Below are positions 3,896-64,000 of a stretch of DNA of 64,000 nt, piece by piece. A program made the position numbers and the translations under genes. Source of the stretch: an uncultured Bacteroidales bacterium (GTDB lineage: Bacteria > Bacteroidota > Bacteroidia > Bacteroidales > VadinHA17); NCBI GenBank assembly GCA_963816365.1, contig CAWFKG010000017.1:28415-92414 (forward strand). The letters run 5' to 3'. Numbering within the stretch: position 1 is the stretch's first letter; each line of letters opens with the position of its first letter. The notes under the pieces were generated by a model. It was not told where the DNA came from. It saw nothing but the letters and a program-made list of their open reading frames with translations, and did no database searches.

Positions 3896-4232
3896 CTCAC
3901 CGCCGTCCCATAGACGTCAACTTAAGGAGTTGAATATAGTAGAATGTAAAATATTGGATATAAGCCTGATACATTTCCCCTCCTTTTGAAGGAGGGGTGG
4001 CCGGACCACTTTATAATTATGTTACAAATACTGATACCGGCCGGGGTGGTTGATTGTTTATTCAATTTCCTGATCTTTTCTTTTGAAGGTTTTTCTTATC
4101 TCATTTTTTACAAATTCAGGTTCCTGGAATACTAACGCTCAGCCCCCTTCAAAAGGGAGGGGAAACTTTTTTATGCAGTATCTCATTCATCCCCCAAAGC
4201 TTAAGTTGACGACTATGGGGATGGGGGTGAGT
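3896..4232. mobile_element. gene-less deletion derivative of the DUF559 hairpin cassette found at 56730-57506
   Basis: 3942-4131 is nearly identical to 56828-57018. The outer inverted repeat is CCATAGACGTCAACTTAAG / CTTAAGTTGACGACTATGG and the inner one is TTTCCCCTCCTTTTGAAGG / CCTTCAAAAGGGAGGGGAAA. Only about the last 25 codons of the DUF559 gene remain. Confidence 0.7.
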
Positions 4233-36140: not shown

Positions 36141-36657
36141 GTGTTGCTGGTTGCTGGTTGCTGGTTACTTCTTACGATAATTAGCAATTAGCAACTAGCA
36201 ACTCGTAACTAGCAACTGGCTAAGTTTTCCAATCAGATTCTACATATTTGATGAAATTGTTAATCATTTTTCCTAAAGTGTCAAGATCCTTAAGAATTTC
36301 TACAAATTCTGAAATCTTTGGGTACAGTTCAATAACAGTAACTGCCTGATTAGTTGCTTCATCGCAGGAAGCTTGAGAATAAACTAAATAACGAATAAAC
36401 TCGGCTTTATACCTTCTTCTGCCGTATCCTTCGACAATATTATCCTTTACGCTTTTTGTCGATCTTCGGATTTGACTTCCTTGTTCATATAGTTCAAACT
36501 GAGGTAACTTAAGTGATGCCTTGTGTACCCTTATAGCTATAACATACGCCAGCTTATAAATTTCCAAATCTTTATAACTCTTCATAATTATTCCTTTCTA
36601 CTTTAGCACGAGCAACAAGCAACAAGCAACAAGCAACTAGAAACTAGAAACCAGAAC
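36141..36657. mobile_element. hairpin-bounded cassette b, arms (TTGCTGG)n / (AGCAACN)n with two alternative right-hand partners
   Basis: 36141-36167 can pair with 36178-36218 (local) or with 36605-36657 (across the gene). Confidence 0.65.
36220..36585 (-). CDS. four-helix-bundle protein (PF05635-like, second subfamily)
   Basis: Intact 121-aa ORF with GSQIRRSTKSVKDNIVEGYGRRRYKAEFIRYL. Confidence 0.8.
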   Translation of the reverse strand: MKSYKDLEIYKLAYVIAIRVHKASLKLPQFELYEQGSQIRRSTKSVKDNIVEGYGRRRYKAEFIRYLVYSQASCDEATNQAVTVIELYPKISEFVEILKDLDTLGKMINNFIKYVESDWKT

Positions 36658-42190: not shown

Positions 42191-42890
42191 TCTTTTCTTT
42201 GCCCCCCTGCCCGAGAAGTTAAATCTCTGTTTATCCTTTTGCCCCCCTGCCCCCCTAAAGGGGGGTTCGTACTCGTTATTTAAGTGAGTTTTGTATATTT
42301 GAAATATTGCTGCATTATTAATGAAAACAGTAATATCTAAAATTACTATGTATTATGGAGCGGATTCCGCGACATTAAGACACCCATATACTTAGAAGGA
42401 GTATGACTAAAGATGAAGGGGTACTATGGAAAAAGTTAAAGGACAGAAATGTATTTAGCAGTAAAATTTAGAAGACAACATCCTGTTTATAATTTCATTG
42501 TTGATTTTTATTGTCATGAATATAAGCTTGTCATAGAAGTTGATGGAGATATTCATAATGATGAAATTGCATACCAGTATGATTTGGGCAGAACTAAAGT
42601 GCTTAACAATTTTGGATTGAAAGTAATCCGATTTACAAATGATCAGATACTTTATAGTTTAGATTCTGTAATAGAGGAAATCCAAAGAGAAGTTGCGAAT
42701 CGAACTCCCCTTAGGGGGGCAGGGGGGCAAAAAAGAGATGAGCATAATAAAATTGGGCAGGGGGGCAAAAAAGAGATGAGTATAATAGAGTTGGGCAGGG
42801 GCAGAGATGAGCATAATAAAATTGGGCAGGAGGGCAAAAAGAGATGGCATTAGGATAATAATGCTGGGCAGGGACAAAAATAACAGAATG
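42191..42890. mobile_element. hairpin-bounded cassette with DUF559 cargo; arms are inverted arrays of a ~38-bp unit
   Basis: The left side has 2 units ending TTTTGCCCCCCTGCCCCCCTAAAGGGGGG (42191-42266). The right side has 5 units, GGGCAGGGGGGCAAAAAAGAGATGAGCATAATAAAATT and variants, starting at 42717, 42755, 42793, 42824 and 42866. Confidence 0.7.
42348..42853 (+). CDS. DUF559 (Vsr-like endonuclease fold) protein, 2 N-terminal frameshifts, C-terminus reads into the repeat arm
   Basis: ORF 42449..42853 (FRRQHPVYNFIVDFYCHEYKLVIEVDGDIH..LKVIRFTNDQI) parallels the intact copy at 56944..57327. Upstream frames give MYYGADSATLR.. and ..MTKDEGVLWKKLKDR. Confidence 0.65.
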
Positions 42891-44608: not shown

Positions 44609-44920
44609 TTACAGACTTAACGGCGCAAAGGCGCAACGGCGCAAAGGCGTGAAGAAATATCCAATTTCCTCCGCAATGATAAGTTGTGTTAACAACTCTG
44701 CACTTGAACCTTTTGCAATATAAAAATGACGGATAGATTGTTTATCTGTTTCAAGTTCATCACCTTCAGCAATATTTGAAGGTACGCTAACGGCAGATCT
44801 CTGAATCTGATCTTTCAATCCAAAGTCTTTTGAAAATGACAGCGTTTGAGTTAGTTTATAAATTCTCACAGCTAATTCCTTAGCCAGTTGCCACACACGA
44901 AGCTCTTGAAAATTTCCCAT
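44609..44920 (-). pseudogene. 3'-truncated four-helix-bundle gene; the last 16 codons are read from the repeat arm
   Basis: The first 88 aa are about 80% identical (70 of 88 by hand count) to the protein of 31256..31615. Helix 4 is missing and is replaced by FFTPLRRCAFAPLSL, encoded by the (GGCGCAAA)n arm. Confidence 0.75.
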
Positions 44921-46901: not shown

Positions 46902-47261
46902 ATGAGCAATTATGAAAATTTGAAGGTTTGGCATAGAGCCGTTGAACTTGCAGTTTCAATCTATAAGTTAACAGGAACGAACAAATCATTTGTTAAAGAT
47001 TTTGGATTAAAAGATCAAATACAGAGATCATCTGTGAGTATTTCCAGTAATATTTCCGAAGGTGATGAACTCGGAACTGATAAGCAAGCTATCAGGCAAT
47101 TCTTTATCGCAAAAGGATCGGCAGCAGAACTTTATACTCAGCTTACTATTTCCTCTAAAATAGGATACCTGAATGAGGAAGAAGCCAAGTATTATTTGAA
47201 TGAATGCAAAGGCATTTCATCCATGCTGACTAATCTCATTAAATCGAGATCATCAGAATAA
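46902..47261 (+). CDS. four-helix-bundle protein (PF05635-like)
   Basis: Intact 119-aa ORF with KDQIQRSSVSISSNISEG and FIAKGSAAEL. Confidence 0.85.
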   Translation: MSNYENLKVWHRAVELAVSIYKLTGTNKSFVKDFGLKDQIQRSSVSISSNISEGDELGTDKQAIRQFFIAKGSAAELYTQLTISSKIGYLNEEEAKYYLNECKGISSMLTNLIKSRSSE

Positions 47262-49315: not shown

Positions 49316-49571
49316 GACTCAGAGACTCTAGGGACTAAGGGACTGAGGGACTGCACACCTAAATAGTCTAGGATTGAGTGACATATCGACAGTCTTCCAT
49401 TATTTTCTCATACAGATCCATCAGGGAAAGCTCTTCGTCATTATTGCAACTTAAGAGAATCAGAGGTTTTGTAGGGAAGATATACTAAAGAGTAGTCTAA
49501 CCAGTATGCTTCATTACAGACTCTTCGTCTCTAGTCCCTATAGTCCCTAAGTCTCTTAGTCTCTTAGTCTG
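49316..49571. mobile_element. decayed cassette: arms of the GACTAAG / CTTAGTCT family around a ~40-codon remnant of a four-helix-bundle gene
   Basis: Arms at 49316-49352 and 49518-49571. The minus-strand remnant 49368-49457 reads ..LLSCNNDEELSLMDLYEKIMEDCRYVTQS*, which resembles the C-terminus LSCDYMTEQEHFDLNETYDKILGKL of 54156..54527. Confidence 0.6.
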
Positions 49572-49642
49572 TTAATTATTCGGGATTTTACTATCTTTGT
49601 CCGAATTTTTTATAATAACAAGTTTTATTAATCGCAGATCCA

Positions 49643-52600
49643 ATGGGGAAACGGTTTCCTGAATATAAAGGTCTTGATCTTTCGAAGGTAAATAAGGAGA
49701 TTCTCAGAATATGGGATGAGAATGATACTTTCAACAGAAGTGTACGTGAACTGAACGGAAAAGGTGAGTTTGTATTCTATGAAGGACCGCCTTCAGCAAA
49801 CGGAATACCTGGAATTCATCACGTGATGGCACGTACGATCAAGGATGCAATCTGCCGTTTCAAAACCCAGTGCGGTTATGAAGTGAAACGCAAGGCAGGA
49901 TGGGATACCCATGGACTGCCGGTTGAGCTTGGCGTCGAAACAGCTCTTGGCATCACAAAGGAAGATATCGGAAATAAAGCTTCTCCTAAATATATTTCTG
50001 TTGAAGATTACAACAAGGAATGCCGTAAGGCTGTAATGAAATACACCGATCTCTGGGAAGACCTTACCAGGAAAATGGGATACTGGGTTAATATGGATCA
50101 TCCGTATGTGACTTACGATAACCGTTATATCGAAACACTCTGGTGGCTGCTCCAGCAACTCTATAAAAATGGTCATCTCTACAAGGGTTATACAATACAA
50201 CCATATTCCCCGGCAGCAGGCACCGGACTTAAGCTCCCATGAACTTAACCTGCCCGGCTGCTACCGCGATGTAAAGGATACCACCTGCATAGCACTGTTT
50301 AAGCTTACCAGAGATAAAAAATCGGAATTCCTTTATAATAAGATAGATACTGCCGATGTACATATGATGGCCTGGACAACAACTCCATGGACACTTCCAT
50401 CAAATACTGCACTGGCAGTAGGAAAAGAGATAATTTATATAAAAGTCCGGAGCTTCAATCCTTATTCCGGTGAACCAATCACAGTAATAATAGCTAAAGA
50501 TCTTCTCAATTCATTGTTTCCTGCATCGAATGCAGGTCTTGACTTCACCGAATATAAACCCGGTGATAAAAAGATCCCGTTCAGAGTTTCAGGGGAATTC
50601 ACCGGAGCGGAGCTTGAAGGCATAAATTATGAACAGCTTATCGACTGGATGAATCCGGGGGAAGGTGCATTCAGGGTACTGACCGGTGATTTTGTCACAA
50701 CTGAAGACGGTACCGGGATTGTTCATATTGCTCCTACCTTTGGTGCAGACGACTACAAGGTAGCAAACGAAAATGGGGTACCTCCTCTTCTTGTTAAAAG
50801 AAAGGACGGCTCCTTTGGACCTATGGTTGATAAAAGAGGCTACATGGTCCCGATTGCAGATCTTGATGAGACTTTTGTTAAGAATAATGTCAACAAAAAA
50901 ACTTATGCTGCGTTCGAAGCTCATCCGGTAAAAAATGAATATGATGATAATATTCCTGCCGATGCAGATACGATCGATGTTGAAATAGCAGTGATGCTTA
51001 AGCAACAGGGTAAGGTTTTCAGGATCGAGAAGCAGATACACAGCTACCCTCATTGCTGGAGAACAGATAAACCTGTTCTCTACTATCCTCTCGATGCATG
51101 GTTCATACGTACAACAGCATTCCGCGACCGTATGATTGAACTTAATAATACCATAAACTGGAAACCACAATCCACAGGTTCCGGAAGGTTTGGTAAGTGG
51201 CTTGAAAATCTTGTTGACTGGAACCTTTCACGTTCACGTTACTGGGGAACTCCTCTTCCGATATGGATCACTGAAGACAAAAAAGAGGAAAAATGCATTG
51301 GCTCCGCTTCTGAACTAAAAGCTGAGATTGAAAAATCGATCAAAGCAGGATTCATGAAGCAAGAATCCTCTTGCAGAATTTACAGCAGGAGATAATTCAC
51401 CTGAAAATTACGAACATTTCGATCTGCACCGTCCGTTCGTTGATGAAATTATCCTTGTCAGTGATACGGGAAAGAAAATGTTCCGCGAAGCAGATCTGAT
51501 TGATGGCTGGTTCGATTCAGGAGCGATGCCCTATGCCCAGGTTCATTATCCTTTTGAGAATAAGGACAATTTCAGTGAAATGTTCCCGGCTGATTATGTT
51601 GCAGAAGGTGTCGACCAGACAAGAGGCTGGTTTTTCACTCTTCATGCCATAGCAACCATGATCTCAGACTCAGTTGCTTTCAGAAACATTATTTCAAACG
51701 GACTCGTTCTTGATAAGAACGGAAATAAAATGTCGAAAAGACTTGGTAACGCCGTCGATGCATATTCTGCAATTGAGGAAAATGGTCAGTGATCCTTTGC
51801 GCTGGTACATGATTACCAACTCCCAGCCCTGGGATAATCTTAAGTTCGACATTACAGGAGTGGATGAAGTAAAACGTAAATTTTTCGGTACTTTATACAA
51901 TACCTATTCCTTCTTTTCTCTCTACGCAAATGTTGATAATTTCAGATATGCAGAAAAGGAGATCCCGGTCAATGAGAGACCCGAAATAGACCGCTGGATA
52001 ATCTCGCTTCTTAACTCACTTGTTAAAGAGGTTAGCGGTTGTTATAATGATTATGATCTGACCCGGGCCGGACGTGCAATACAGGATTTTGTAACCGAGA
52101 ACCTGAGCAACTGGTATGTACGCCTCAACAGGAAACGGTACTGGGGCGGCGATTATGACAAGGATAAACTTGCTGCTTACCAGACCCTTTATGTATGTCT
52201 TGAGACAGTCAGCCAGCTTGCAGCTCCAATCGCTCCGTTTTATATGGATCGTCTTTTCTGCTGATCTTAATGATGTGACCGGCAGACATAAGGATAATTC
52301 TGTTCACCTGGTTCTTGTTTCCCGAATATGATGAATCACTTATCGATAAGGCTCTTGAGGAAAGAATGGAGATTGCCCAGAAAATATCTTCAATGATACT
52401 TGGATTGAGGAGGAAAGTAAGCATTAAAGTCCGCCAGCCGCTGGCCAGGATAATGGTCCCGGTTCCTGATAACAACTTCAGGGAGAAATTTGAAGCAGTA
52501 AAAGATCTGATACTTGCTGAAGTCAATGTCAAAGAAGTCGAATATATCGATGACACTTCCTCAATTCTTGTCAAGAAAATAAAACCTAATTTCAAAACGC

Positions 52601-53113
52601 TCGGTCCGCAGATATGGCAAGCTTATGAAGGATATAAGCAACTCGATTGCAGCATTCACACCTCAGGAAATTGTTGCATTCGAAAACTCCGGAACTCATG
52701 CTGTTACTATTAACGGACAGGAGATTATTCTGACCACCGGAGATGTTGAAATAATTTCAGAGGATATACCAGGCTGGCAGGTTGCAAATGACGGTAAGCT
52801 GACTGTCGCTCTTGATATAACTGTATCTGACGATTTGCGTTATGAAGGTATTGCGAGGGAGTTTGTAAACCGGATCCAGAATATCCGTAAGGAAAACGGG
52901 TTTGATGTTACTGATAAAATCACAGTCTTATCGAAGATCATGATTTTGTGCATGAAGCAGTAACCAGACATTCATCCTATATCGCTTCACAGACGCTTGC
53001 TACTTCTGTCGAGTTAGCAGAAACGTTTCGACGGAACCAATATACGTGAAGTAGATATTGATGAGTGGGTGGTGAAGGTGCAGGTGAAGAAGCAAACTTG
53101 TAGAACCTTCTGA
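49643..53113 (+). CDS. ileS: isoleucine--tRNA ligase (long Bacteroidota type), at least 6 frameshifts
   Basis: PSANGIPGIHHVMARTIKD (HIGH region), the editing domain in ORF 50169..51395, KMSKRLGNAV (KMSKS), and C-terminal frames to ..EVDIDEWVVKVQVKK. Confidence 0.9.
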
Positions 53114-53158: not shown

Positions 53159-54098
<940 letters not shown>

Positions 54099-54101
<3 letters not shown>

Positions 54102-54710
54102 CTGACGGACTTAGTGACTAAGGGACTTAGTGACTAAGGGACTCAGAGACGAGGGTTACCAACTCCAATTCTCTGGATGGAGGGACATGTTGACAAGCTT
54201 TCCTAATATTTTGTCATAGGTTTCATTAAGGTCAAAATGTTCTTGTTCGGTCATATAGTCACAACTTAACGAGAAATCCAACCAGGTTTGAGTTTCTGCT
54301 GCTTCGCCCTCCGAATCCGTGAGTTTTGCAATAAATGATTTTGGATATCTTCTTTTTCTGAAGGCTTCTGCTAGATTTGAGCATACTGACCTGGAAGATC
54401 TTCTTATTTGATCTGTTAAAGAATAAATCTCTTCTTTGGGAAATCTCTTGGTTAGTTCAAAAATCTTCATTGCTACATCGAACAAAAGACAATACACGTC
54501 TAATTCCTTGTGAGATCTGATTTTCATTTTTCAGCGATTTAAGTAAGACAATTATTATTCCAATCTAAAATTAGAACAAATACTTGAATCCTATTCATAA
54601 TTTGTTTTATATTCTCATCATCCCTATAGTCTCTTAGTCTCTTAGTCTCTTAGTCTCTTAGTCTCCTTAGTCTCTTAGTCTCTTAGTCTCTTAGTCTCTT
54701 AGTCTCTCTT
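54099..54710. mobile_element. hairpin-bounded cassette e, arms GACTTAGTGACTAAGG.. / (CTTAGTCT)n
   Basis: The left arm 54099-54155 begins with the uxs TGA. The right arm 54621-54710 is about 10-11 tandem 8-mers. Confidence 0.7.
54156..54527 (-). CDS. four-helix-bundle protein (PF05635-like, second subfamily)
   Basis: Intact 123-aa ORF with TDQIRRSSRSVCSNLAEAFRKRRYPKSFIAKL. Confidence 0.8.
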   Translation of the reverse strand: MKIRSHKELDVYCLLFDVAMKIFELTKRFPKEEIYSLTDQIRRSSRSVCSNLAEAFRKRRYPKSFIAKLTDSEGEAAETQTWLDFSLSCDYMTEQEHFDLNETYDKILGKLVNMSLHPENWSW

Positions 54711-54770: not shown

Positions 54771-56717
54771 ATGATAGACCGCTCAACCATAGAACGAATT
54801 CTGGATGCCGCTCAGATTGTTGATGTGGTACAGGAGTTTGTTCCACTGAAGAAACGGGGAGTGAACTACCTGGGGTTATGTCCATTTCATAATGAAAAAA
54901 CACCTTCATTCACAGTATCTCCATCGAAAGAGATTTTCAAATGTTTTGGATGCGGAAAAGTGGGAAACTCGGTCAATTTTGTAATGGAACATGAGCATCT
55001 GACCTACCCCGAAGCGCTTAAATACCTTGCAAAGAAATATCACATTGAGGTCATTGAAAAAGAGCTTTCACAGGAAGAGCTGGAAAAACAGAATGAGAGG
55101 GAGAGCCTCCTTGTGGTTTCATCATATGCTGCCAGGCAGTTCTCTGAAAACCTGTTTCATAATGACGAGGGAATATCTATCGGACTTACCTATTTCAGGG
55201 AACGGGGCTTCCGTCAGGATACATTGAAAAAATTTGAGGTAGGTTACTGCTTTGAGAAACGGGACGCATTCTCGAAAAAGGCTCTTGAAGATGGATACAA
55301 ACAGGATTTTCTTGTAAAGACCGGTCTTTCAGTTCAGCATGAAGACCACATCTTCGACAGGTTCAGCAGCAGGGTGATGTTCCCTATACATTCTCTTTCC
55401 GGACAGGTACTCGGTTTCGGAGGCAGAATACTTAAAACTGATGTCAAAACAGCTAAATATCTGAATTCTCCCGAATCAGAGATATATCATAAAAGCAGAA
55501 TATTATACGGAATATACCAGGCGCGGAAATCGATAACACAGGAGGACAAATGTTATCTGGTTGAAGGTTATACCGATGTTATGTCGTTACATGAAGCAGA
55601 TATTGAAAATGTTGTGGCATCATCGGGAACCTCTCTGACGCAGGAACAGGTAAGGCTTATAAAAAGATTTACCCAGAATATTACAATTCTTTATGATGGT
55701 GACCCTGCCGGGATTAAAGCCTCCATAAGGGGTATTGACCTGGTGCTTGAAGAGGGGATGAATGTCAAGATTGTCCTTATCCCCGATAATGAGGACCCTG
55801 ATTCTTATTCAAAAAAATTAAGCAATGAGGAATTCCGGAAATTCCTTAAGGAGAATGAAACTGATTTCATACGTTTTAAGACGCAGCTTCTTCTCTCTGA
55901 AGCAAGTAATGATCCGGTCAAAAGAGCTGATCTTATACGCGATGTTGTAAAGTCAATTGCTGTTATCCCCGAAGCTATAACAAGGACAGTATATATAAAG
56001 GAATGCAGCACCGTACTTGAGGTCAGTGAGCCCATCCTATATCATGAAGTCAATAAGCTCCGGCAGCATAAAAGTTTTCAGGACAGGAATAAATATCCGG
56101 GTCCCGAGGATCTTCCTGTTCCTCCGCCGGTTATAGTCAAACCTGTTCAACGCGAGACTGTTACGTATTATTCTGAAAAGGAGATAATCAGACTGCTTTT
56201 AAAATTCGGAAATGTAGAATTTGAAAGGACCCTGAATAAAGAAGATGGCAAAGAGGAGATGCTATCTGTAGCTGATTATATTGTCAGGGAGATAACATCT
56301 GACGATCTTTTGTTTGACGACAGCGTATGCTCAAAGATTTTTGCCGATTTCAGATTTCATGTCGAGCATGGTCTGATCACAGGTGACAAACAATTCGTAA
56401 AACATGGAGATCCTGAGATCTCAAGTCTTTCAGCCGATCTGCTTGCCGACTCGCATGAGCTGAGCAGGATCTGGAAGGATAAGCAAACTTTCGTTGAGAC
56501 GGAAGATATGAAGCTGAAAGAGATTGTAGGCGATGCCGTCCTCAAATTCAAGAGTGATAAAATAATGATTAAGAGAAAAGAGATAATGTCACTTCTTGAA
56601 GAAGCCGTAAAAGCCAACGATACTGAGAAGATACTACAGCTGCAAAAAAGATATGCAAATCTTAGTGTTGTCCTGGGATTAATTTCAAGGAAACTGGGGA
56701 ACAGGATATTGCTGTAA
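54771..56717 (+). CDS. dnaG: DNA primase
   Basis: Intact 648-aa ORF. The zinc ribbon is CPFHNEKTPSFTVSPSKEIFKCFGCGKVG and the TOPRIM motifs are EGYTDV..YDGDPAG. Confidence 0.9.
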   Translation: MIDRSTIERILDAAQIVDVVQEFVPLKKRGVNYLGLCPFHNEKTPSFTVSPSKEIFKCFGCGKVGNSVNFVMEHEHLTYPEALKYLAKKYHIEVIEKELSQEELEKQNERESLLVVSSYAARQFSENLFHNDEGISIGLTYFRERGFRQDTLKKFEVGYCFEKRDAFSKKALEDGYKQDFLVKTGLSVQHEDHIFDRFSSRVMFPIHSLSGQVLGFGGRILKTDVKTAKYLNSPESEIYHKSRILYGIYQARKSITQEDKCYLVEGYTDVMSLHEADIENVVASSGTSLTQEQVRLIKRFTQNITILYDGDPAGIKASIRGIDLVLEEGMNVKIVLIPDNEDPDSYSKKLSNEEFRKFLKENETDFIRFKTQLLLSEASNDPVKRADLIRDVVKSIAVIPEAITRTVYIKECSTVLEVSEPILYHEVNKLRQHKSFQDRNKYPGPEDLPVPPPVIVKPVQRETVTYYSEKEIIRLLLKFGNVEFERTLNKEDGKEEMLSVADYIVREITSDDLLFDDSVCSKIFADFRFHVEHGLITGDKQFVKHGDPEISSLSADLLADSHELSRIWKDKQTFVETEDMKLKEIVGDAVLKFKSDKIMIKRKEIMSLLEEAVKANDTEKILQLQKRYANLSVVLGLISRKLGNRILL

Positions 56718-56729
56718 GACATACAGTAC

Positions 56730-57506
56730 TCACCCCCTTCATCCTCCATAGAGAGTGGCGGGGAGGCAAAACCGTCAACTTAAGAAGTTGAATATAGTAA
56801 AATATGGAGAGAGTTTAGTACAAAACAGAATGTAAAATATTGGATATAAGCCTGATACATTTCCCCTCCTTTTGAAGGAGGGGTGGCCGGACCACTTTAT
56901 AATTATGATACAAATACTGATACCGGCCGGGGTGGTTGATTGTTTATTCAAATTCCGGATCTTTCATTTTGAAGATTTTTCTTATCTCATTTTTTACGAA
57001 TTCAGGTTCCTGGAATACCAGCCTGTTTTCAAACCTTAGTACTGAGAATCCAAGGCCTTCAAGATATTGATCTCTTTTTTTATCTTTTTCTATTTTATGA
57101 TATTCACCATGCGGATTTCCATCAAGCTCAATTACCAGTTTTTCTGAAGTACAACAAAAGTCAACTATGTAATTACCTATACTATGTTGTCTTCTGAATT
57201 TTCTTTCATTAAGCTTTTTTGATTTTAAAATGTTCCATAACTCAGCCTCAGCAGAAGTGGACTTGTTCCTAAGAGATGATCTAAAAAACTTAAGGCTTTT
57301 TTTGTTAAAGAGGATTTTGTTTTTCATGCCAATAAAGGTAAGAAAGAAATCAATGAATCAACCACCCCGATCGGGAAATAAAACACTGTATATATCAGAT
57401 AATCAATCGTCCCGACCACCCCTCCTTCAAAAGGAGGGGAAACTTTTTTATGCAATATCTCGTTCATCAATAGAGATTAAGTAGACGGCATGGGGTGGGG
57501 AGGTGA
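56730..57506. mobile_element. hairpin-bounded cassette with intact DUF559 cargo and three nested inverted repeats
   Basis: The outer pair is 56730-56786 / 57467-57506. The middle pair is 56858-56896 / 57409-57444, and each member contains its own CCCCTCC..GGAGGGG hairpin. The inner pair is 56919-56941 / 57354-57376. Confidence 0.75.
56944..57327 (-). CDS. DUF559 (Vsr-like endonuclease fold) protein
   Basis: Intact 127-aa ORF with AEAELWNILKSKKLNERKFRRQHSIGNYIVDFCCTSEKLVIELDGNPH..LRFEN. Confidence 0.8.
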   Translation of the reverse strand: MKNKILFNKKSLKFFRSSLRNKSTSAEAELWNILKSKKLNERKFRRQHSIGNYIVDFCCTSEKLVIELDGNPHGEYHKIEKDKKRDQYLEGLGFSVLRFENRLVFQEPEFVKNEIRKIFKMKDPEFE

Positions 57507-57662: not shown

Positions 57663-58566
57663 ATGAGAAGGCCAATTATCATCCTTATTTTATTTATTTT
57701 ATTTCTTTCAGTCTCCTGCAGACAAGGTATAAAAGAAAAGGATTCATTTAAGCCGGTCTTTTCAACCTATAAATCAGACACCTCAAAAAAGCCATCTACC
57801 TCTACAAAAAAATGAGATCTTTTATGGAATACTTACTCCTGTTGAAATGTGCACAATATTTAACAGGCTGGGGATCACTTACAATAATGCAGCTCTGAAT
57901 CCTGTTTCGAACAGGGATCTCTATTTAAGCATCTCTAAAGCGTCCATAAACACCGGGGTCTATGGAGTTGATTTCGGATATCTTAAGGTTTTTGGAATAG
58001 GACAGCAGATGATCGATTATATGGTCACTATCCGTGATATGAGCAACAAACTCGGCATTCCCGACAGTTACCTCACCGGACCTATAAAGAAGGTGGAAAA
58101 TGATATATCAGATCCTGATACAATTCTGTACCTCATGAACGATGCTTATACTAAAATGGAAGCACACCTTCGTGAAAGCGGAAGAGAAAGCACTGCTGGT
58201 CTTATGATTATGGGTGGCTGGGTCGAAGCTATGTTTATTGCCACCCAGCTTGTTTATAATCCTGACAGGCCCGATTCTGAAGTCGTACAGAAGATCGCAC
58301 AGCAGAAATACACTCTTACCACTCTTCTGAGCTTCCTGAAAAATTATTATGATGACCCTGTTGTAGTTTATTATTCCAAGAAACTTAAATACCTGAAAAA
58401 CTATTTCGACTCTTTTGATATCTATTTCAAAAAGGGCGATCTTGAAATTGATACTGCAAAGCAAGTCTTCCGTTCCACCGGAAGTCAGATGACTGTAACA
58501 GTTGAAACATTGAATAAGATACGCGACTATGTCGCAAAACTAAGGACGGAGATGGTAACGCCCTAG
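57663..58566 (+). CDS. lipoprotein of unknown function, one frameshift in the A7 run at 57806-57812
   Basis: MRRPIIILILFILFLSVSC is a lipobox. ORF 57847..58566 continues it, and the frame is restored by shortening the A run by one. Confidence 0.55.
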
Positions 58567-58733
58567 GAATGTATTATGTATAACAGGCGATTGGCGATGT
58601 GCTTTATTTAATTGTCATTGCGCGCGCGTAGAAGGAACTGCAATCTTAAACTCCAGCCCTCTGAATTTACTCCTGATTTATTTGTATATTAGATTCACCA
58701 ATCTGATCAACTGTTGAACCTAACCACCGCAAA

Positions 58734-61700
58734 ATGAAATCTGCAAAACTCATTCCAATCCTTATTGTATTTCTTATCCTAACATCTTGTGGTTCAAAGA
58801 ATAATAAGTTATTACAGCAAATAAAAAATCAGGGAACTGAAGCCGTCACTGTGAATATTCCTCTTGATAAAGGCTTCAGTGAGTATATTTCAGGATATAC
58901 TTCAGGCGTTATTCCGGCCAATTCAGTTATTGAAGTACACTTTACACCCGAATTTGCTGCTAAGGCTGACAAGTCGGCTTCAGGATTATTTGTGTTTGAA
59001 CCATTTGTTAAAGGGAAAACGGAATGGAAAGATGAAACAACTCTTGTCTTTACACCTTCAAAACATCTCGATCCTGAGACCACTTACTCGATTAATCTTA
59101 ACCTGGACAAACTCTCCGAAGTGAATGACAGGCTGAAAGTATTTCCATTAAAGGTCCAGACTGTCAAAAAAGACTTCCATGTGACTATAGGATCCCTTGA
59201 CTGTTCAGGTGCTGCAGGAAACGGCTATCTGCTTCATGGCCAGATAACAGCTTCCGATTTCATAGAACCTGCTGAAATCGAAAATTATCTGAATGCCAGA
59301 CTGGGAAGAAAAAAGCTGGAAATAACTTGGGACCATTCTGCCAGTCTCATTCATAAATTCACTGTAACAGGAATTGACCGCACTGACAAGGTTCAGGGAC
59401 TTCTTATTACATGGGATGGTTCTTCAGGCCGGGTAAAACAAGAAGGATCTGCTTCAATAAATATACCTCCTGCCGGGGAATTCAATGTTCTGGATGTAAT
59501 TTCAAGCTCGGATGGCAGTCAGAAAATAGATATTATATTTTCAGATGCCATTGATCCTGCCCAGGAAACTGAAGGACTCATTCATTTAGATCCATTTTCA
59601 GAAAATACGTTGAGTATTGCTTCGAATATTGTAAGCATCCTGCCGGCAAAAAGGTTACAGGGAATTGTCATGCTTCATGTGGAGCCGACAATTAAAAACA
59701 ATAAAGGAGCTAACCTCACTCAGTCCTTTTCAAAACAGCTTGACTTCACCTCCCTATACCCTTCAATAGCGGCTGTTGGAAAAGGTGTGATACTGCCTTC
59801 TTCAAAAAATCTTATATTTCCATTCAGGGCTGTAAACCTTAAAGCTGTTGACCTTAGAATAATCAAGATATTTGATAACAACCTTCCTTATTTTCTTCAG
59901 GAAAATGATATCACCGGCAGCAATTCGATAAAACGGTTCGGACGTCCGGTATATTCAGGAAAAGTTGATCTCGTCACTGGCTCAGCAATGAATGATGGTC
60001 AGTGGAGCCTGTATACTATTGATCTTGCTGACTACATAAATATTGAACCGGGTATACTATATAAGGTAGAGCTGGGTATGAGAAGGTCTTACTCTCTTTA
60101 TCCCTGTATAGCCACAGGTGAAGTAAGTAAATATGAAGAAGCCCTTCAGATGGCTGCTGAGCAAAACAAGGAATCATGGGACGATCCCGACAATTATTAT
60201 AGCGAAGATGAGTATGACGTTTATTACAGATACGGTCTTGACTGGAATCAGCGCGATAATCCTTGTAATGACGCTTACTACAGTCCCGATAGAATGATTT
60301 CAAAAAACGTCCTGGCGTCAAATTTAGGACTGATGGCAAAAAAAGGGGAAGACAATATTCTGCATGTTATGGTCAACGATCTTATTACCGCTATGCCATT
60401 AAATGAAGTATCAGTTGAAGTATTTGATTTACAGATGCAGCAGGTTTCTTCGGGAACGACCAATCAGGATGGGTCAGTGGCTATTCATTGTGAAAGAAAA
60501 CCGTTCCTGGTCATTGCAAAAAAAGATAAAGACAGGAACTGGCTTAAAATAAATGATGGAGCTTCTCTTTCTCTGAGTTCATTCGACGTGGCGGGAAACA
60601 AACCCGAAAACGGAATTAAGGCTTTTATATATGGCGAAAGAGATGTCTGGAGACCCGGTGATTCAATTTTCCTTTCAATAATCATAAAAGATATGAAAGG
60701 AAATCTTCCTGAAGGACATCCTGTCCAGTTTGAACTTATTAATCCTCTCGAACAGAAAGTTGATAATCAGGTTCAGAAATTAGAAGGAAAGAACCTTCTT
60801 GTCTTCACATCAAAAACCCCTTCTGATGCAGTCACTGGTGATTATAGAGCCATATTCAGAATCGGGGGTGCCACCTTTACAAAACGGGTAAGAATTGAAA
60901 CTGTAAAACCGAACAGGCTGAAGATAAATCTGAATTTCCAGGGTGAGATCCTTGGCGGGTCCAATCCTGTTGCAAAAGGAACTCTCAATGTGAAATGGCT
61001 TAATGGAAACGTGGCAAAGAACCTAAAGGCATCTGTTGATTATATCCTGAAGCAGACAAAAACACAATTTGACAAATATGGACAATATGAATTTGATGAT
61101 CCAATAAGTGAATTCCATACAGAAACGGTAAACATTTTTAAAGATGCAGTAGATGATAAAGGAAATGCTACTGTTGTTTTTGATCCGGGGAAAGCGACAA
61201 ATGCGCCCGGAATGCTGAATGCTGTGTTTACAGCTAAAGCCTCAGAGCCCGGAGGTGATGAAAGTATTACCCAGACAAGCTATAAATATGCACCATATCC
61301 GGTATTCGTCGGGATAAACCTTCCAGGACTTAAAGGTAAAAGCAGAATGCTTTTTACTGATGCAGTCAATGAAGTCAGATTTGTCACGGTCGACGAGAAA
61401 GGAAAGCCAGTCCGATCAGAAGTTGAAATAACAATTTATAAAATCTCGTACAGATGGTGGTGGGAATCAGATGAAGAAAATCTTGCTTCATTTATTTCCA
61501 ACCAGAATTATAAACCCGTAATTAAAAAAACTATTACCACTTCAGGCGGAGAGGGTTCTTTCACATTTAACATTGATAAAAAAGAATGGGGTCGTTACCT
61601 GATAAGAGCTACCTCTCCCGGTGGCCATACGACCGGCAAAATACTTCTTGTAGACTGGCCCTGGGAATATGGTTCAAAAGGCAATACTGAGGGGGCCACT

Positions 61701-64000
61701 CTGCTCGCAATCAACACCGATAAAGACAAGTATAACACCGGAGATGAAATAAAACTCACCTTCCCTGCTCCCGAAAATGCAAGAGCTATTGTGACTCTTG
61801 AAAACGCTGAAGGTGTTCTGGATGAAATGCGGGTAGGTACTGAGAAAGGCAGCACCGTAGTCTCATTCAAGGCAAGACCTGAGATGGCACCTAATGTCTA
61901 TGCATACGTTACAGTGATCCAGCCTCATGCTCAGACTGTCAACGATATGCCAATGAGGTTGTACGGAGTAGTGCCTGTTATGGTCGAAGATCCTCAGACC
62001 CGGCTTGTACCGAAAATTGAAATGCCTGATGAGATCCGTTCACAAAAACCAGTGGTGATCAAAGTCAGTGAAGCAAACGGGAATTCCATGAGCTATACCC
62101 TGGCGGTCGTTGATGAGGGACTGCTTGATATAACAGGTTTCAAGACTCCCGATCCATGGAACTATTTCTATGCCCGCGAAGCTCTTGGCGTCCAGACCTG
62201 GGATCTTTATGATTTTGTTCTTGGAGCCTTCGGCGGAACTCTCGACAGAGTATTTGCTACAGGTGGAGATGAAACCGTTATTGATAAATCTGCCAATAAA
62301 GCAAAGAGGTTTGTACCGGTAGTAAAATTCCTTGGTCCTTTTAGTCTGACCTCAGGAAAAATCAAATACTCATACTATTACATTGCCTCAGTATACCGGG
62401 TCCGTACGGACAATGATCATAGCCGGAAGCGACAGGGCTTTTGGCATTGCGGAGAAATCCGTACTTGTTAATGACCCTCTGATGATACTTGTAACCGCTC
62501 CCAGGGTTGTCAGCCCGGGCGAAAAAGTCGCCCTCCCGGTCTCCCTCTTCATTCAGAAAAACGGTATCAGCGATATTACAATTAAAGCCGAAGGAAATGA
62601 TCTTATCAGCTTTCAGGAGAAAACAAAAAGTATATCCGTGTCAGGTACAGGCGAGAAAGAATCGGAATTTTCATTTACTGCGGGAGGAAAAACCGGTGTG
62701 GCAAAAATAAGTGTTACTGCAACCGGTGGCGGAGAGAGCGCTACCTATAATATGGAGATTGAAGTGAGAAGTCCTAATCCGCCTGAGTTACGGACTGAAC
62801 TTAAGGTAATAAGAAAGGGTGAAAAGTTTGAAACATCCTTCAAGCCTTTTGGAATTGAGGGATCTAATTCTGCCACAATTGAGGTCTCGTCACTTCCATC
62901 AATAAACCTTGAGAAAAGAATGGAATATCTTCTTGATTATCCGCATGGATGTTCCGAGCAAGTAACATCACAGGCATTTCCACAGTTATGGCTCAAAGAT
63001 CTCACAAGCAATGATGCGAGCTCAAAATCTGTTTCGGATAATATCTCAAAAGCCATTAACATACTTATTTCCAGACAGATGGTCAATGGTGGTATAGCTT
63101 TGTGGCCGGGCTCAGGCCAACCAGATAACTGGGTGACATCATATGCAGGCCATTTCATGAGTGAAGCTGAAAGGAAAGGATACAATATCCCTTCAGGATT
63201 TAGACAGAGATGGCTTGGTTACCAGAGAAAAGCAGCACAGGACTGGCGTTATGATGCTATGTTCAAACAGACAGCCAATGATCAGGCATACAGGTTGTTT
63301 ACGCTGGCTCTTGCCGGTCAGCCCGAAAAAGGGGCTATGAACAGGCTCAGGGAATCACCGAACATTCCTCAATTATCCCGATGGCTGCTGGCAGCTACAT
63401 TTGCCACAACCGGAAGGCCTGAAATCGCTGCAGGACTGCTCGATGTAAGGAATACCGGAACTGAGGCTGAGTTCTGTAATTATTATTATGGCAGTGAGAT
63501 GCGCGATAAAGCTATTATATTATATACCCTTACTCTTTTGAAAAATGAAGAACAGGTGCTTCCTGTGCTTAAGACGATCTGTGATAATTTCAATAATGAG
63601 GACTGGTACAGCACACAGTCAATAGCATGGTGCTTGTATTCATATATGAAATGGACAGAAACAGTACCAGGTGACAAAAGTGGTCCCTCAAAAATAACAT
63701 TCACTTTCAACGGTAACAAATCTGAACAGACAGTGCCTTCGAAACAAGTCTGGTTAAAAGATCTGAAGCAGAATAGCGATAATAACTCACTTATCATTGA
63801 GAACAAATATGAGCAGCCACTGTATGTAACCCTAACAAGGAAAGGGATCCCTCTTGTCTCCGATATGGCACGTGAAGATAAAGGAGTAAGCATGAAAATT
63901 GATTATATGGATATGAACCTGAAACCCCTTGATCAGAAAAATCTTAAACAAGGTTCTGATTTCTTGATGGTTGTAAAGGTCACCAACAATACATTCTCAT
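58734..64000 (+). CDS. bacterial alpha-2-macroglobulin family lipoprotein with thioester motif, one frameshift at the A5 run 62357-62361; 3' end lies outside the window
   Basis: Lipobox LILTSCGS. ORF 58734..62471 carries MG-type domains. An untracked open frame then runs from ~62360 to 64000 and contains YPHGCSEQVTSQ (CxEQ at 62950-62961). Confidence 0.85.

What the first reader, a model, noticed from the sequence alone, without database searches (positions are those of the whole stretch)
56730..57506. An intact DUF559 endonuclease-like gene is enclosed by three nested inverted repeats
There are three inverted-repeat pairs: outer (56730-56786 / 57467-57506), middle (56858-56896 / 57409-57444) and inner (56919-56941 / 57354-57376). 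They surround a 127-aa gene antisense to dnaG and the downstream lipoprotein gene. Each middle arm also contains its own perfect mini-hairpin (CCCCTCC TTTTGAA GGAGGGG). DUF559 belongs to the restriction-endonuclease-like (Vsr-like) fold. A nuclease inside a structured, repeated element is the kind of arrangement expected for a homing-type or self-maintaining element.
Basis: partly seen in the sequence, partly recalled or inferred. Interest (0 to 1): 0.65.

Follow-up and report, generated by a model that had tools for sequence, protein, structure and literature searches.

The report
Nuclease gene cassette with transposon ends
The small nuclease gene downstream of dnaG is a repeated, transposon-ended cassette, and its inner hairpin repeats match in layout (not in sequence consensus) the orphan "BoxC/triplex" repeats that I found beside this gene family in many bacterial phyla, a link I did not find in the literature searched.

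Summary
An intact 127-aa DUF559 gene (56944-57327, minus strand) lies inside inverted repeats. However, the three "nested" pairs are different kinds of feature.

**Outer layer.** This is an IS4-family, IS231-type terminal inverted repeat (consensus CATAGnCGTCAACTTAAG) plus a roughly 10-bp target duplication.
- The 727-bp unit (56767-57493) recurs at about 92% identity in many genomic contexts in uncultured peat and soil Bacteroidales, with several copies per genome.
- A 309-bp gene-less derivative lies at 3909-4217 in this window.
- A relative whose DnaG is 93% identical has an empty site.
- The same ends flank 1.4-1.7-kb elements that encode IS4 transposases.
- It is therefore a transposase-less "mobile insertion cassette", not a homing element.

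**Middle and inner pairs.** Together they form one structured arm on each side: C-rich strand, loop, G-rich strand, a covarying stem-loop, then a mirror G-rich strand. This is the layout of BoxC/PIT intrastrand-triplex repeats.
- Such motifs flank 33 of 36 distantly related DUF559 genes from many phyla, a 45-fold local enrichment.
- They also flank 9 of 9 DUF559 genes from named isolates.
- They travel with DUF559, not with the IS ends.

The gene is under purifying selection (dN/dS about 0.15). The biochemical role of the nuclease and its arms is unknown.

The parts
56757..56766 (.). Left copy of the target-site duplication (GGCGGGGAGG)
   Evidence: Direct repeat with 57494-57503, 9 of 10 identical (family D1; row WINf). 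Other copies show perfect 9-11-bp duplications.
56767..56784 (+). Left terminal inverted repeat, IS4/IS231 type. It is decayed in this copy: CAAAACCGTCAACTTAAG against the consensus CATAGnCGTCAACTTAAG.
   Evidence: Similarity to copies elsewhere starts at 56765-56773. The consensus fits the IS231-subgroup end signature CAT-------AA--TAA--- (PMC2266710 Table 1).
56785..56859 (.). Subterminal non-coding spacer, shared only with the closest (85-94% identical) copies
   Evidence: Copies at 75-80% identity align only across 56860-57448 by blastn.
56863..56941 (+). Left structured arm: mini-hairpin 56863-56883 (CCCCTCC/GGAGGGG); stem-loop 2 at 56885-56891/56922-56928; mirror G-strand GGGGTGG at 56929-56935; invariant box GGGGTGGTTGATT at 56929-56941
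   Evidence: Predicted DNA fold has z = -3.3. Stem 2 has three pairs with compensatory changes. The hairpin and the 13-nt box are invariant across 30 copies. A strict detector for the triplex-type layout finds it.
56944..57327 (-). DUF559 (Vsr-like PD-(D/E)XK) gene, 127 aa, intact
   Evidence: Pfam PF04480 E=5e-34. PDB 3HRL E=4e-22. All family-invariant residues are present: E27, W31, R46, Q47, D56, C59, E67, D69, G70, H73, D82, R98. dN/dS is 0.10-0.20 against 17 other copies.
57356..57439 (-). Right structured arm, a mirror image of the left arm: box AATCAACCACCCC at 57356-57368; stem-loop 2' at 57369-57375/57411-57417; mini-hairpin at 57419-57439
   Evidence: In helix 4, pair 537/585 is UA in 18 copies and CG in 11. 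There is a sub-threshold Rfam wcaG match at 57356-57447 on the minus strand, 22.1 bits against a gathering score of 42.
57419..57450 (+). Terminator-like hairpin plus T-run on the plus strand (the dnaG sense)
   Evidence: Consensus scan: 2 terminator-like sites found against 0.8 expected. This is a pattern match only.
57476..57493 (-). Right terminal inverted repeat. It is decayed: ATTAAGTAGACGGCATG(G) against the consensus CTTAAGTTGACGnCTATG.
   Evidence: Similarity to other copies ends at 57494-57506.
57494..57503 (.). Right copy of the target-site duplication (GGTGGGGAGG)
3909..4217 (+). Second, internally deleted copy of the same cassette (309 bp). It has intact termini, CATAGACGTCAACTTAAG / CTTAAGTTGACGACTATG. 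It keeps the left arm and the last 25 codons of the gene.
   Evidence: (families D3, D6, D11 and I19). tblastn matches residues 103-127 at 4061-4135.
42237..42732 (+). Second, unrelated DUF559 unit (39% aa identity, reading frame broken). It is flanked by a different arm, TTTTGCCCCCCTGCCCCCCTAAAGGG and its complement, and has no IS-type ends.
   Evidence: (I8). The same arm type flanks a 131-aa DUF559 at a different site in relative L101.

Best explanation
The region is a composite of two layers.

**Layer 1 (shown).** A 727-bp transposase-less cassette (56767-57493) carries IS4-family, IS231-type terminal inverted repeats.
- It inserted into the dnaG-downstream spacer at a G/C-triplet-bounded site and duplicated about 10 bp.
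- Cassettes of this kind, their gene-less miniatures, and 1.4-1.7-kb elements that carry an IS4 transposase between the same ends form one family.
- The cassette is therefore most likely moved in trans by such a transposase, as a mobile insertion cassette. This step is inferred.
- This particular copy has mutated termini and an imperfect duplication. It is probably an old insertion that can no longer move (inferred).

**Layer 2 (association shown, function inferred).** The passenger is not a bare gene. It is a DUF559 Vsr-like nuclease gene bracketed by two mirror-image structured arms. Each arm reads: pyrimidine strand, loop, purine strand, covarying stem-loop, mirror G-strand. This is the layout of BoxC/PIT/TM intrastrand-triplex repeats.
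- This gene-plus-arms module accompanies DUF559 genes across many phyla and is much older than the IS ends.
- The IS family prefers targets of the form SSS-N3-5-SSS (S = G or C). Such sequences abound in these arms. That preference plausibly explains why DUF559 modules were captured as passengers at least twice (inferred).
- Strong purifying selection on the gene, and on the arms, in every copy indicates that the nuclease and its arms are functional.
- My best guess is that the nuclease binds or nicks the folded arms. This guess is untested.
For: **A discrete repeated unit.**
- Window 56765-57494/57506 is about 92% identical to copies on other contigs.
- One identical protein (P0009) sits on 12 contigs in at least 4 contexts.
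- Several copies occur per MAG: at least 5 in CAWGJX01, at least 7 in CAWEYU01, at least 5 in JANYIW01.

**Termini and target duplications.**
- Ends are CATAGnCGTCAACTTAAG, with perfect 9-11-bp direct repeats. Examples: L003 CCCTAAATCC, L034 GGGCGTGACC, L043 CCCCAAGGGG, L046 CCCTTGTCCC.
- 14 of 31 distinct insertions have at most 1 mismatch in the duplication.
- The end signature and direct-repeat length match the IS231 subgroup (PMC2266710 Table 1).

**Elements with the same ends that encode a transposase (metagenome scan).**
- 14 terminal-repeat pairs of 1.44-1.68 kb enclose an IS4 transposase.
- Example L126: NCBIfam NF033592 at 201 bits against a cutoff of 115. The Y-2-R-3-E-6-K motif is readable in the sequence.
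- The same scan found 23 miniatures and 6 mid-sized cassettes. Five of the six carry DUF559; the sixth (L202) is an internally deleted IS.
- 21 of 45 pairs have good duplications.
- Viral and Logan copies give left and right ends beside IS4 transposases.

**Site occupancy.**
- Empty site: L101 (DnaG 93% identical) has 55 nt between dnaG and the next gene.
- Occupied at the same site in relatives whose DnaG is 99% identical.

**Arms.**
- Alignment of 30 copies shows compensatory pairs in stem 2 of both arms. 0 of 500 shuffles reach the observed covariation score.
- Triplex-type motifs lie within 250 nt of 33 of 36 distant DUF559 genes, and on both sides of 28 of them. Density is 4.61 per kb near the gene against 0.10 per kb elsewhere.
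- All 9 of 9 named-isolate loci have them.
- A flanking inverted repeat is present at 61% of genes against 1.1% of control positions.
- The motifs are inside 5 of 5 DUF559 cassettes and in 1 of 14 autonomous IS copies.

**Selection.**
- Median dN/dS is 0.18.
- Non-coding flanks inside the element diverge 2-3 times more slowly than synonymous sites.
Against: - No IS4 transposase was found in the 64-kb window or in the ±2.5-kb genome loci. None of the transposase-bearing elements was shown to come from the same genomes or samples as the cassettes.
- Cassette and IS copies share nothing beyond the roughly 18-nt ends.
- About half of the insertions lack a clean duplication. Some have inverted rather than direct flanks, including the short copy at 3909-4217 and L031.
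- The triplex-motif detector is my own heuristic. Triplex formation in cells was not supported even for E. coli BoxC (PMC4666352).
- Arm orientation is not uniform. Arms are direct in L067 and L080, and the G-box faces outward at the 42.2-kb unit.
- Nothing here shows that the protein touches the arms.
Confidence: 0.75

Rival explanations
1. Homing-type element. The DUF559 nuclease cuts empty sites, or gene-less pairs of arms, and the gene is copied in by recombinational repair that uses the arms as homology.
For: - The nuclease is intact and under purifying selection.
- There are weak matches to homing-endonuclease profiles (PADLOC HEase E=0.002). Vsr-like homing endonucleases are grouped with DUF559 in PMC3424549.
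- DUF559 units that lack IS ends show no target duplication. They sit at different sites in related genomes, for example window 42.2 kb against L101:6556-7126.
- Gene-less inverted arm pairs exist: L197 and L199, and E. coli BoxC pairs (PMC4666352 Table 1).
Against: - For the unit in question, IS-type ends, 9-11-bp duplications, diverse unrelated target sites and transposase-bearing relatives explain movement without homing.
- No filled/empty pair with identical arm flanks was found for any unit that lacks IS ends.
Confidence: 0.2
2. A repeat-and-enzyme system like REP/RAYT. DUF559 would be the protein partner of the dispersed BoxC/PIT/TM repeats. The gene flanked by inverted arms would be the source, and the singletons and pairs scattered in genomes would be its products or substrates.
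For: - The hallmark architecture, a gene bracketed by inverted copies of a repeat that also occurs elsewhere, is seen in many phyla.
- E. coli ycjD has BoxC no. 9 168 bp downstream, and a second hairpin at its 3' end.
- A Photobacterium DUF559 lies next to an array of at least 17 such units.
- TM singletons occur in the same spacers in relatives (L102).
- The BoxC/TM paper reports no known function or protein partner and never mentions DUF559.
Against: - E. coli strains without ycjD (38% of 5426 complete genomes) still belong to a species known to carry BoxC repeats.
- In the 64-kb window the motif occurs only at DUF559 units. It is not dispersed here.
- There is no biochemical link.
- The association could instead arise because repeats and small selfish genes accumulate in the same permissive spacers.
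Confidence: 0.25
3. The arms act in RNA, not DNA. They would be 5' and 3' UTR stem-loops that stabilise, insulate or process the nuclease mRNA wherever the cassette lands, in the way that stems flank genes inside rRNA intervening sequences.
For: - Stem 2 covaries in both arms, which fits any single-stranded form.
- A plus-strand hairpin plus T-run at 57419-57450 would stop read-through from dnaG.
- The upstream G-box often sits just before the start codon in other phyla, for example L068 and L081.
- There is a sub-threshold match to a cis-regulatory RNA family, wcaG.
Against: - The mirror-strand rule (third strand equals the reversed purine strand, with A changed to T) and the invariant 13-nt box on both arms are not needed for simple UTR hairpins.
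- E. coli PIT/BoxC elements showed no promoter or terminator activity (PMC4666352).
- Bacteroidota generally do not use Shine-Dalgarno pairing (from my own knowledge).
Confidence: 0.2
4. An ordinary chromosomal repair gene (Vsr-type T:G mismatch endonuclease) with incidental flanking hairpins, and not mobile.
For: - Source annotations call close homologues "very-short-patch-repair endonuclease".
- A DUF559-domain protein in Caulobacter (VsrA) is functionally tied to a cytosine methyltransferase (PMC12907096).
Against: - There are many near-identical copies per genome in unrelated spacers, an empty site in a relative, deletion derivatives, IS ends and target duplications.
- There is no methyltransferase gene next to it.
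- The Pfam scan at E<=0.01 reported only DUF559 and MTES_1575, so the Vsr family model was not matched.
Confidence: 0.03
5. DUF559 is itself the enzyme that moves the unit bounded by the terminal inverted repeats.
For: Both DUF559 subfamilies found between these ends are intact and conserved.
Against: - The same ends bound elements whose only gene is an IS4 DDE transposase.
- Many miniatures have no DUF559 remnants.
- Duplications of 9-11 bp and the end signature are the IS4-family hallmarks.
Confidence: 0.03

Closest known systems
MIC231-type mobile insertion cassettes of the IS231 subgroup (IS4 family) in the Bacillus cereus group (Chen et al. 1999; De Palmenaer et al. 2004; described in PMC6199540 and PMC2266710)
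   Same: - Two IS-type terminal inverted repeats, no transposase, one passenger gene, and a size of about 0.7 kb.
- The ends fit CAT-------AA--TAA---.
- Target duplication is about one helix turn.
- The cassettes coexist with miniature and full-length relatives that share the same ends.
   Different: - The host is uncultured Bacteroidales, whereas the subgroup was described as almost exclusive to the B. cereus group.
- The passenger is always DUF559 in the sample examined, whereas MIC231 passengers are varied.
- The passenger brings its own conserved inverted arms.
- Trans-mobilisation has not been demonstrated.
- The "CA region" next to the left repeat was not examined.
BoxC / PIT / TM_ECO intrastrand-triplex repeats (Hoyne et al. 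2000; Holder et al. 2015, PMC4666352)
   Same: - The order of blocks is the same: pyrimidine strand, short loop, complementary purine strand, then a second G-rich strand that mirrors the purine strand.
- They occur as singletons and as inverted pairs in intergenic DNA.
- No function is known.
   Different: - Blocks are 7 nt (CCCCTCC / GGAGGGG / GGGGTGG) rather than 9 nt.
- The 3-nt second spacer is replaced by a 43-50-nt covarying stem-loop.
- The TM_ECO sequence consensus is not matched.
- Here the motif is tied to a gene.
REP/REPIN repeats and their RAYT transposases
   Same: A single small enzyme gene is bracketed by inverted copies of a hairpin repeat that also occurs without the gene.
   Different: - The enzyme has a different fold: a PD-(D/E)XK nuclease rather than an HUH Y1 transposase.
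- No evidence shows that DUF559 makes or moves the repeats.
- This comparison rests on my own knowledge of the RAYT literature.
Vsr-like homing endonucleases (I-Bth0305I type) and Vsr repair endonuclease
   Same: They belong to the same fold group as DUF559 (PMC3424549 row 58).
   Different: - The gene is not inside an intron or intein, and not next to a methyltransferase.
- The insertions are intergenic and carry transposon-type duplications.

Membership tests
DUF559 (PF04480), Vsr-like PD-(D/E)XK nucleases | Match to the family profile above the curated cutoff | tested here: met
   116.8 bits against a cutoff of 20.6, E=5e-34, covering profile positions 7-107 of 109.
DUF559 (PF04480), Vsr-like PD-(D/E)XK nucleases | Conserved core residues (D...ExD...H and partners) | tested here: met
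   D56, E67, D69 and H73, plus E27, W31, R46, Q47, C59, G70, D82 and R98, are all present. Each is conserved in at least 98% of 44 aligned sequences.
DUF559 (PF04480), Vsr-like PD-(D/E)XK nucleases | Restriction-endonuclease-like fold | tested here: met
   Sequence match to the solved structure 3HRL, E=4e-22 over residues 21-120. I did not predict a 3-D model.
DUF559 (PF04480), Vsr-like PD-(D/E)XK nucleases | Nuclease activity | not testable with these tools
   The only evidence is indirect: the DUF559-domain protein VsrA of Caulobacter causes an SOS response in vivo (PMC12907096).
Vsr very-short-patch repair endonuclease | Genetic linkage to a cytosine-5 methyltransferase gene | tested here: not met
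   The neighbours are dnaG and a lipoprotein-like gene.
Vsr very-short-patch repair endonuclease | Match to the Vsr family profile | tested here: not met
   The Pfam scan at E<=0.01 lists only DUF559 and MTES_1575.
Mobile insertion cassette (MIC) of an IS4/IS231-type IS | Two terminal inverted repeats of IS type | tested here: met
   The consensus ends CATAGnCGTCAACTTAAG occur at both ends of dozens of copies. In the window copy the ends are decayed, with 15 of 18 positions retained on the left.
Mobile insertion cassette (MIC) of an IS4/IS231-type IS | No transposase gene; at least one other coding sequence between the ends; size about 0.7-3 kb | tested here: met
   727 bp with a single 127-aa DUF559 ORF. 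The definition is taken from PMC6199540.
Mobile insertion cassette (MIC) of an IS4/IS231-type IS | Target-site duplication of the length the IS family makes (10-12 bp for IS231; about 10 bp for IS4) | tested here: met
   Duplications are 9-11 bp. 14 of 31 insertions and 21 of 45 have at most 1 mismatch. The window copy has 9 of 10 identical.
Mobile insertion cassette (MIC) of an IS4/IS231-type IS | An autonomous IS with the same ends exists | tested here: met
   14 terminal-repeat pairs of 1.44-1.68 kb enclose IS4 transposases in the metagenome sample.
Mobile insertion cassette (MIC) of an IS4/IS231-type IS | Such an IS is present in the same genome, and trans-mobilisation has been shown | tested here: inconclusive
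   None was found in the window or in the ±2.5-kb loci of the cassette-bearing MAGs. Whole genomes could not be scanned. A mobilisation assay is not possible with these tools.
IS231 subgroup of the IS4 family | End signature CAT-------AA--TAA--- | tested here: met
   The consensus CATAGCCGTCAACTTAAGGA has CAT at positions 1-3, AA at 11-12 and TAA at 15-17.
IS231 subgroup of the IS4 family | Transposase clusters with IS231 transposases | not tested
   Only IS4-family membership (NF033592) and the YREK motif were checked.
BoxC / PIT / TM_ECO intrastrand-triplex repeat | Three consecutive blocks: pyrimidine strand, complementary purine strand, mirror purine strand | tested here: met
   CCCCTCC / GGAGGGG / GGGGTGG on both arms.
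BoxC / PIT / TM_ECO intrastrand-triplex repeat | TM_ECO consensus CCCTCNCCC N3-6 GGGNGAGGG N3 GGGNGAGGG | tested here: not met
   The blocks are 7 nt with a different sequence, and the second spacer is 43-50 nt.
BoxC / PIT / TM_ECO intrastrand-triplex repeat | Forms a triplex | not testable with these tools
   The folding tools model hairpins only.
Homing endonuclease gene | One conserved recognition site, usually inside a gene, intron or intein, with no target duplication | tested here: not met
   The insertions are intergenic, at many unrelated sites, and carry 9-11-bp duplications.

The most novel reading that the evidence does not exclude
DUF559 nucleases are the missing protein partners of the BoxC/PIT/TM "intrastrand triplex" repeats.
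- The ancestral unit would be a DUF559 gene bracketed by two inverted triplex-type arms.
- The nuclease would recognise or nick the folded arms.
- The thousands of orphan BoxC/TM singletons and inverted pairs in bacterial genomes would be gene-less derivatives or substrates of such units, in the way that REP sequences relate to RAYT.
- The genome instability reported around these repeats would be a consequence of this nuclease.

The statistical association is shown here. The functional partnership is not.
Probability: 0.3. Interest if true: 0.85.

Novelty: new variant of a known kind. Interest (0 to 1): 0.66.

Why it matters
**1. An extension of a known class of mobile element.** IS231-type mobile insertion cassettes were described essentially in the Bacillus cereus group. 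Here they appear in uncultured peat and soil Bacteroidales, with full-length, cassette and miniature forms. This is useful for annotation, because these units break short-read assemblies.

**2. A candidate link between a domain of unknown function and an orphan repeat family.** The cassette's inner repeats led to a general observation. DUF559 genes in many phyla are bracketed by BoxC/PIT-type motifs. This gives a testable substrate for a widespread, uncharacterised nuclease family. It also gives a candidate protein partner for a repeat family that has had no known function since the 1990s. Both can be tested directly in E. coli, using ycjD and the BoxC repeats.

Tried and rejected
- **Exact-protein look-ups.** Look-ups of the DUF559 and DnaG proteins found nothing, so the source genome is not in the collection.
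- **Viral-contig scan with a 29-nt cassette pattern.** No hits.
- **Viral-contig scan with the terminal-repeat pattern.** This gave 6 single hits. Five look like chance matches. One (L095) turned out to be a real IS end.
- **Homologue search with that transposase fragment.** It returned only 11 proteins, none from the cassette hosts.
- **Search for the direct parent IS.** blastn of cassette subterminal sequence against the transposase-bearing loci found nothing beyond the 18-nt ends.
- **E. coli as a clean filled/empty test for units without IS ends.**
  - ycjD is absent from 38% of complete genomes.
  - Strains lacking it carry a different segment after fabI (TetR/RND genes), with no BoxC at the junction.
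  - There is therefore no simple empty site.
- **Target duplications at the outer edge of arms in units lacking IS ends.** None were seen.
- **Within-genome paralogue comparison (L082/L087).** The copies are too diverged (78%) to define unit ends.
- **Rfam.** No family reaches threshold. The wcaG hit is sub-threshold and may be chance.
- **PADLOC and PHROGs.** Only weak matches, giving no evidence for a defence system.
- **Literature.** None of the 25 papers that mention DUF559, and none of the triplex-repeat papers found, links the two. This covers only the held library.
Full report
**What is at the coordinates**

- The window has an intact 127-aa ORF at 56944..57327 on the minus strand. It lies between dnaG (54771..56717, plus strand) and a plus-strand gene that is split in this window (57663..57815 and 57847..58566).
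- The ORF matches Pfam DUF559 (E=5e-34) and nothing else of note.
- It aligns to the solved DUF559 protein 3HRL at E=4e-22.
- It keeps every residue that is invariant in 44 aligned family members: E27, W31, R46, Q47, D56, C59, E67, D69, G70, H73, D82 and R98.
- The middle and inner inverted repeats and the two mini-hairpins are present as described and are far beyond chance.
- The outer pair is weak as an inverted repeat in this copy. It has a 12-nt core, and 60 of 2000 shuffles score as well.

**The unit is repeated and has sharp ends**

- A second, shorter copy lies at 3909-4217 in the same window.
  - It shares 192 nt at 96% identity with 56827-57018, plus the right-hand end.
  - It lacks most of the gene.
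  - It has a clean 18-20-nt terminal inverted repeat, CATAGACGTCAACTTAAG.
- A protein search found 2302 homologues, many on very short contigs. That is what repeats do to short-read assemblies.
- One protein, 91% identical to ours, is encoded on 12 contigs in at least four different neighbourhoods: RNase R|metK, ABC transporter|metK, beside another DUF559, and others. Two paralogues sit on one 95-kb contig, between pyrH and tsf and between a SusC-like locus and an MFS gene.
- DNA similarity to these copies starts at 56765-56773 and stops at 57494-57506, at about 92% identity.
- A scan of species-representative genomes found close relatives only in uncultured Bacteroidales MAGs from fen, peat and soil. 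At least 5-7 copies occur in single MAGs, and there are many internally deleted copies.

**The outer layer is an IS4/IS231-type transposon end with a target duplication**

- Aligned ends give CATAGnCGTCAACTTAAG ... CTTAAGTTGACGnCTATG.
- Immediately outside the ends, many independent insertions have perfect direct repeats of 9-11 bp. Examples are CCCTAAATCC, GGGCGTGACC, CCCCAAGGGG, CCCTTGTCCC, GGGGTAGGGGG and CCCGGAGGG. 14 of 31 distinct insertions have at most one mismatch.
- The published table of IS4-family subgroups gives CAT-------AA--TAA--- and 10-12-bp direct repeats for the IS231 subgroup. The consensus end fits that signature at every specified position.
Among them:
  - 14 terminal-repeat pairs, 1.44-1.68 kb apart, enclose an IS4-family transposase;
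  - 23 pairs of 126-454 bp have no intact gene;
  - 6 are mid-sized cassettes, of which five carry DUF559 and one (L202) is an internally deleted IS.
- One transposase scores 201 bits against NCBIfam "IS4 family transposase", whose cutoff is 115. It shows DLGYYS and the Y-2-R-3-E-6-K motif.
- Independent copies from Firmicutes-like contigs give the left end (CATAGGCGTTAACTTAAG, 93 nt before the transposase start) and the right end (CATAGCCGTCAACTTAAA).
- Duplicated targets are bounded by G/C triplets: GGGTACAGCCC, CCCGTAGGG, GTGTCTCAC, CGACAAGTCG. From memory, IS231A prefers GGG(N)5CCC (Hallet et al. 1994). That paper is cited by title in PMC2266710, but I could not read it.
- By the published definition, two IS-type repeats with no transposase and one or more coding sequences, 0.7-3 kb in size, make a mobile insertion cassette. 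The unit fits.
- I did not find a matching transposase in the window or in the short genome loci. The helper in these genomes is therefore inferred, not shown.

**The insertion is polymorphic**

- Relatives whose DnaG is 99% identical carry the element at the same site, and their contigs break inside it.
- A relative at 93% has only 55 nt between dnaG and the next gene.
- Relatives at 92% have a 554-nt spacer with other small repeats and no DUF559.
- In the window copy both termini are mutated (CAAAAC... and ...GCATG) and the duplication has one mismatch. This copy is probably old and immobile (inference).

**The middle and inner repeats are one structured arm on each side, and they belong to the gene**

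- I aligned 30 distinct copies at 75-94% identity and counted base pairs.
  - The mini-hairpins and the 13-nt box GGGGTGGTTGATT / AATCAACCACCCC never vary.
  - A second stem in each arm (56885-56891 with 56922-56928; 57369-57375 with 57411-57417) has three pairs with compensatory changes. One pair, for example, is UA in 18 copies and CG in 11.
  - No shuffle reaches the observed covariation score.
- Two copies replace the left hairpin with a different one that still pairs: CCTCCCGC...GCGGGAGG.
- Each arm therefore reads CCCCTCC-loop-GGAGGGG-[stem-loop]-GGGGTGG. The last block is the reversed purine strand with A changed to T.
- A literature search on the corresponding sequences from other phyla led to Holder et al. 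2015.
  - That paper describes exactly this block order as the BoxC/PIT/TM_ECO "intrastrand triplex" repeat.
  - The repeat is abundant in more than 260 genomes and has no known function, promoter or terminator activity.
  - It is associated with local genome instability.
  - The paper does not mention DUF559.

**The gene-arm association is general**

- Among distantly related DUF559 genes (38-55% identity), 61% have a flanking inverted repeat scoring at least 12, against 1.1% of 620 shifted control positions in the same loci. These genes come from Patescibacteria, Chloroflexi, Alpha-, Gamma- and Deltaproteobacteria, Firmicutes, Armatimonadota, Elusimicrobia, Nitrospirota and other Bacteroidota.
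- A detector for the three-block layout finds a motif within 250 nt of 33 of 36 such genes, and on both sides of 28. Density is 4.61 per kb near the gene against 0.10 per kb elsewhere in the loci.
- An independent set of nine named isolates gave 9 of 9. The set comprised S. meliloti, Azospirillum, Sphingomonas, Methylobacterium, Photobacterium, N. gonorrhoeae, Pseudanabaena, Picosynechococcus PCC 7002 and Synechocystis. The S. meliloti arms are a textbook CCCTCTCCCC...GGGGAGAGGG-CTA-GGGTGAGGGG.
- In E. coli K-12, BoxC no. 9 of the published list lies 168 bp downstream of ycjD, the DUF559 gene. A further hairpin overlaps the 3' end of the gene.
- Within the IS-ended family, the motifs occur inside all five DUF559 cassettes and their deletion derivatives. 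This includes a second cassette type whose 134-aa DUF559 is only 35% identical and has different arms. They occur in only 1 of 14 transposase-bearing copies and in none of the other miniatures.
- The arms therefore travel with DUF559, not with the IS ends.
- Several duplicated targets are themselves G-box sequences (GGGTGAGGGG, GGGGTTAGGG). This suggests why an IS with this target preference repeatedly landed beside, and captured, DUF559 modules (inference).

**Selection**

- Eighteen intact copies give a median dN/dS of 0.18, with dS about 0.27-0.4.
- The non-coding flanks inside the element differ by only 0.12-0.13 substitutions per site, which is 2-3 times slower than synonymous sites.
- Both the protein and the arms are therefore maintained.
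- For a multi-copy element, this pattern suggests that the protein matters for the persistence or spread of the unit. What it does is not known.
- A DUF559-domain protein in Caulobacter causes DNA damage when a specific cytosine methylation is missing. So at least one family member is an active nuclease in cells.

**Verdict**

The finding is a real mobile element, but of a known mechanistic class: an IS4/IS231-type mobile insertion cassette. It occurs in a new host group and has a recurrent nuclease passenger. The unexpected part is the passenger's own architecture. This led to a broad association between DUF559 genes and BoxC/PIT-type repeats. I did not find this association in the literature I could search. 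Whether the nuclease acts on those repeats is the key open question.

Noticed in passing
window 31256-31615 (+), 36220-36585 (-), 44609-44920 (-), 46902-47261 (+), 54156-54527 (-): There are five '23S rRNA intervening-sequence protein' (four-helix-bundle, Avd-like) genes in 64 kb. Four of them are flanked by inverted repeats built from 7-8-bp tandem repeats, for example 46783-46812/47321-47350 and 54097-54139/54665-54707. The copy upstream of dnaG is present in L101. It is absent in the relatives whose DnaG is 99% and 92% identical.
   Followed up: partly
window 7930-8039 and 49316-49597: Inverted arrays of the same 8-bp repeat (GGGACTTA / TTAGTCTC type) occur with no gene between them. They look like gene-less versions of the repeats that flank the 54156-54527 gene.
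   Followed up: no
window 42237-42882: A second DUF559 sequence (39% identity) has a broken reading frame near 42470. It is flanked by GCCCCCCTGCCCCCCTAAAGGGGGG arms and followed by four copies of a 38-nt repeat at 42734-42882. The same arm type flanks an intact 131-aa DUF559 at a different site in relative L101:6556-7126.
   Followed up: partly
window 49643-52963, 53340-54101, 57663-58566, 58734-62471: Several housekeeping genes are split or truncated compared with relatives. ileS is in pieces against 1149 aa. The epimerase is 253 aa against 311. The gene after the cassette is 50+239 aa against 299-302. The alpha-2-macroglobulin gene is 1245 aa against about 1850. This suggests indel errors in the assembly or real pseudogenes.
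   Followed up: no
window 57356-57447 (-): There is a sub-threshold but full-length match of the right arm to Rfam wcaG RNA: 22.1 bits, gathering score 42, E about 0.1. It shares AGUUUC-hairpin-GUGGU. This may be chance.
   Followed up: partly
L015:2347-3058 and 3183-3892; L017:1971-2138 and 2337-3058: L015 has two cassette copies in tandem. In L017, a 168-bp miniature and a full cassette have near-identical flanks 366 bp apart, so the flank is itself duplicated.
   Followed up: no
L102:5590-5700 and 5860-5915; L102:6960-7080; window 58620-58650: The spacers around the lipoprotein-like gene in relatives hold other small palindromic elements and a lone triplex-type motif. The palindromic elements are GTCATTCCGAGCGGAG... 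and GTCATTGCGAGG... inverted repeats. The lone motif is CCCTCTTCCC...GGGAAGGGGG-AAA-GGGGAAAGGG. These spacers are hot spots for different insertions.
   Followed up: no
L097 (E. coli K-12 1349500-1352500) and L107: ycjD (DUF559) is present in 3378 of 5426 complete E. coli genomes. Strains without it have a different segment (TetR/RND genes) after fabI. A remnant of a second DUF559 3' end lies between BoxC no. 9 and ycjD, at L097:1822-1860.
   Followed up: partly
L231:2392-3971 (Photobacterium sp. GJ3 pGJ3-1): An array of at least 17 triplex-type units lies directly downstream of a DUF559 gene.
   Followed up: no
L238 (Sphingomonas), L237 (S. meliloti pSymB), L235 and L236 (cyanobacterial plasmids): In Sphingomonas, a DUF559 gene with arms sits immediately upstream of dnaG. 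In S. meliloti, it sits next to an IS4-like ISRm16 transposase. In the cyanobacterial plasmids, DUF559 genes sit beside BREX PglX or DUF499/DUF1156 genes.
   Followed up: no
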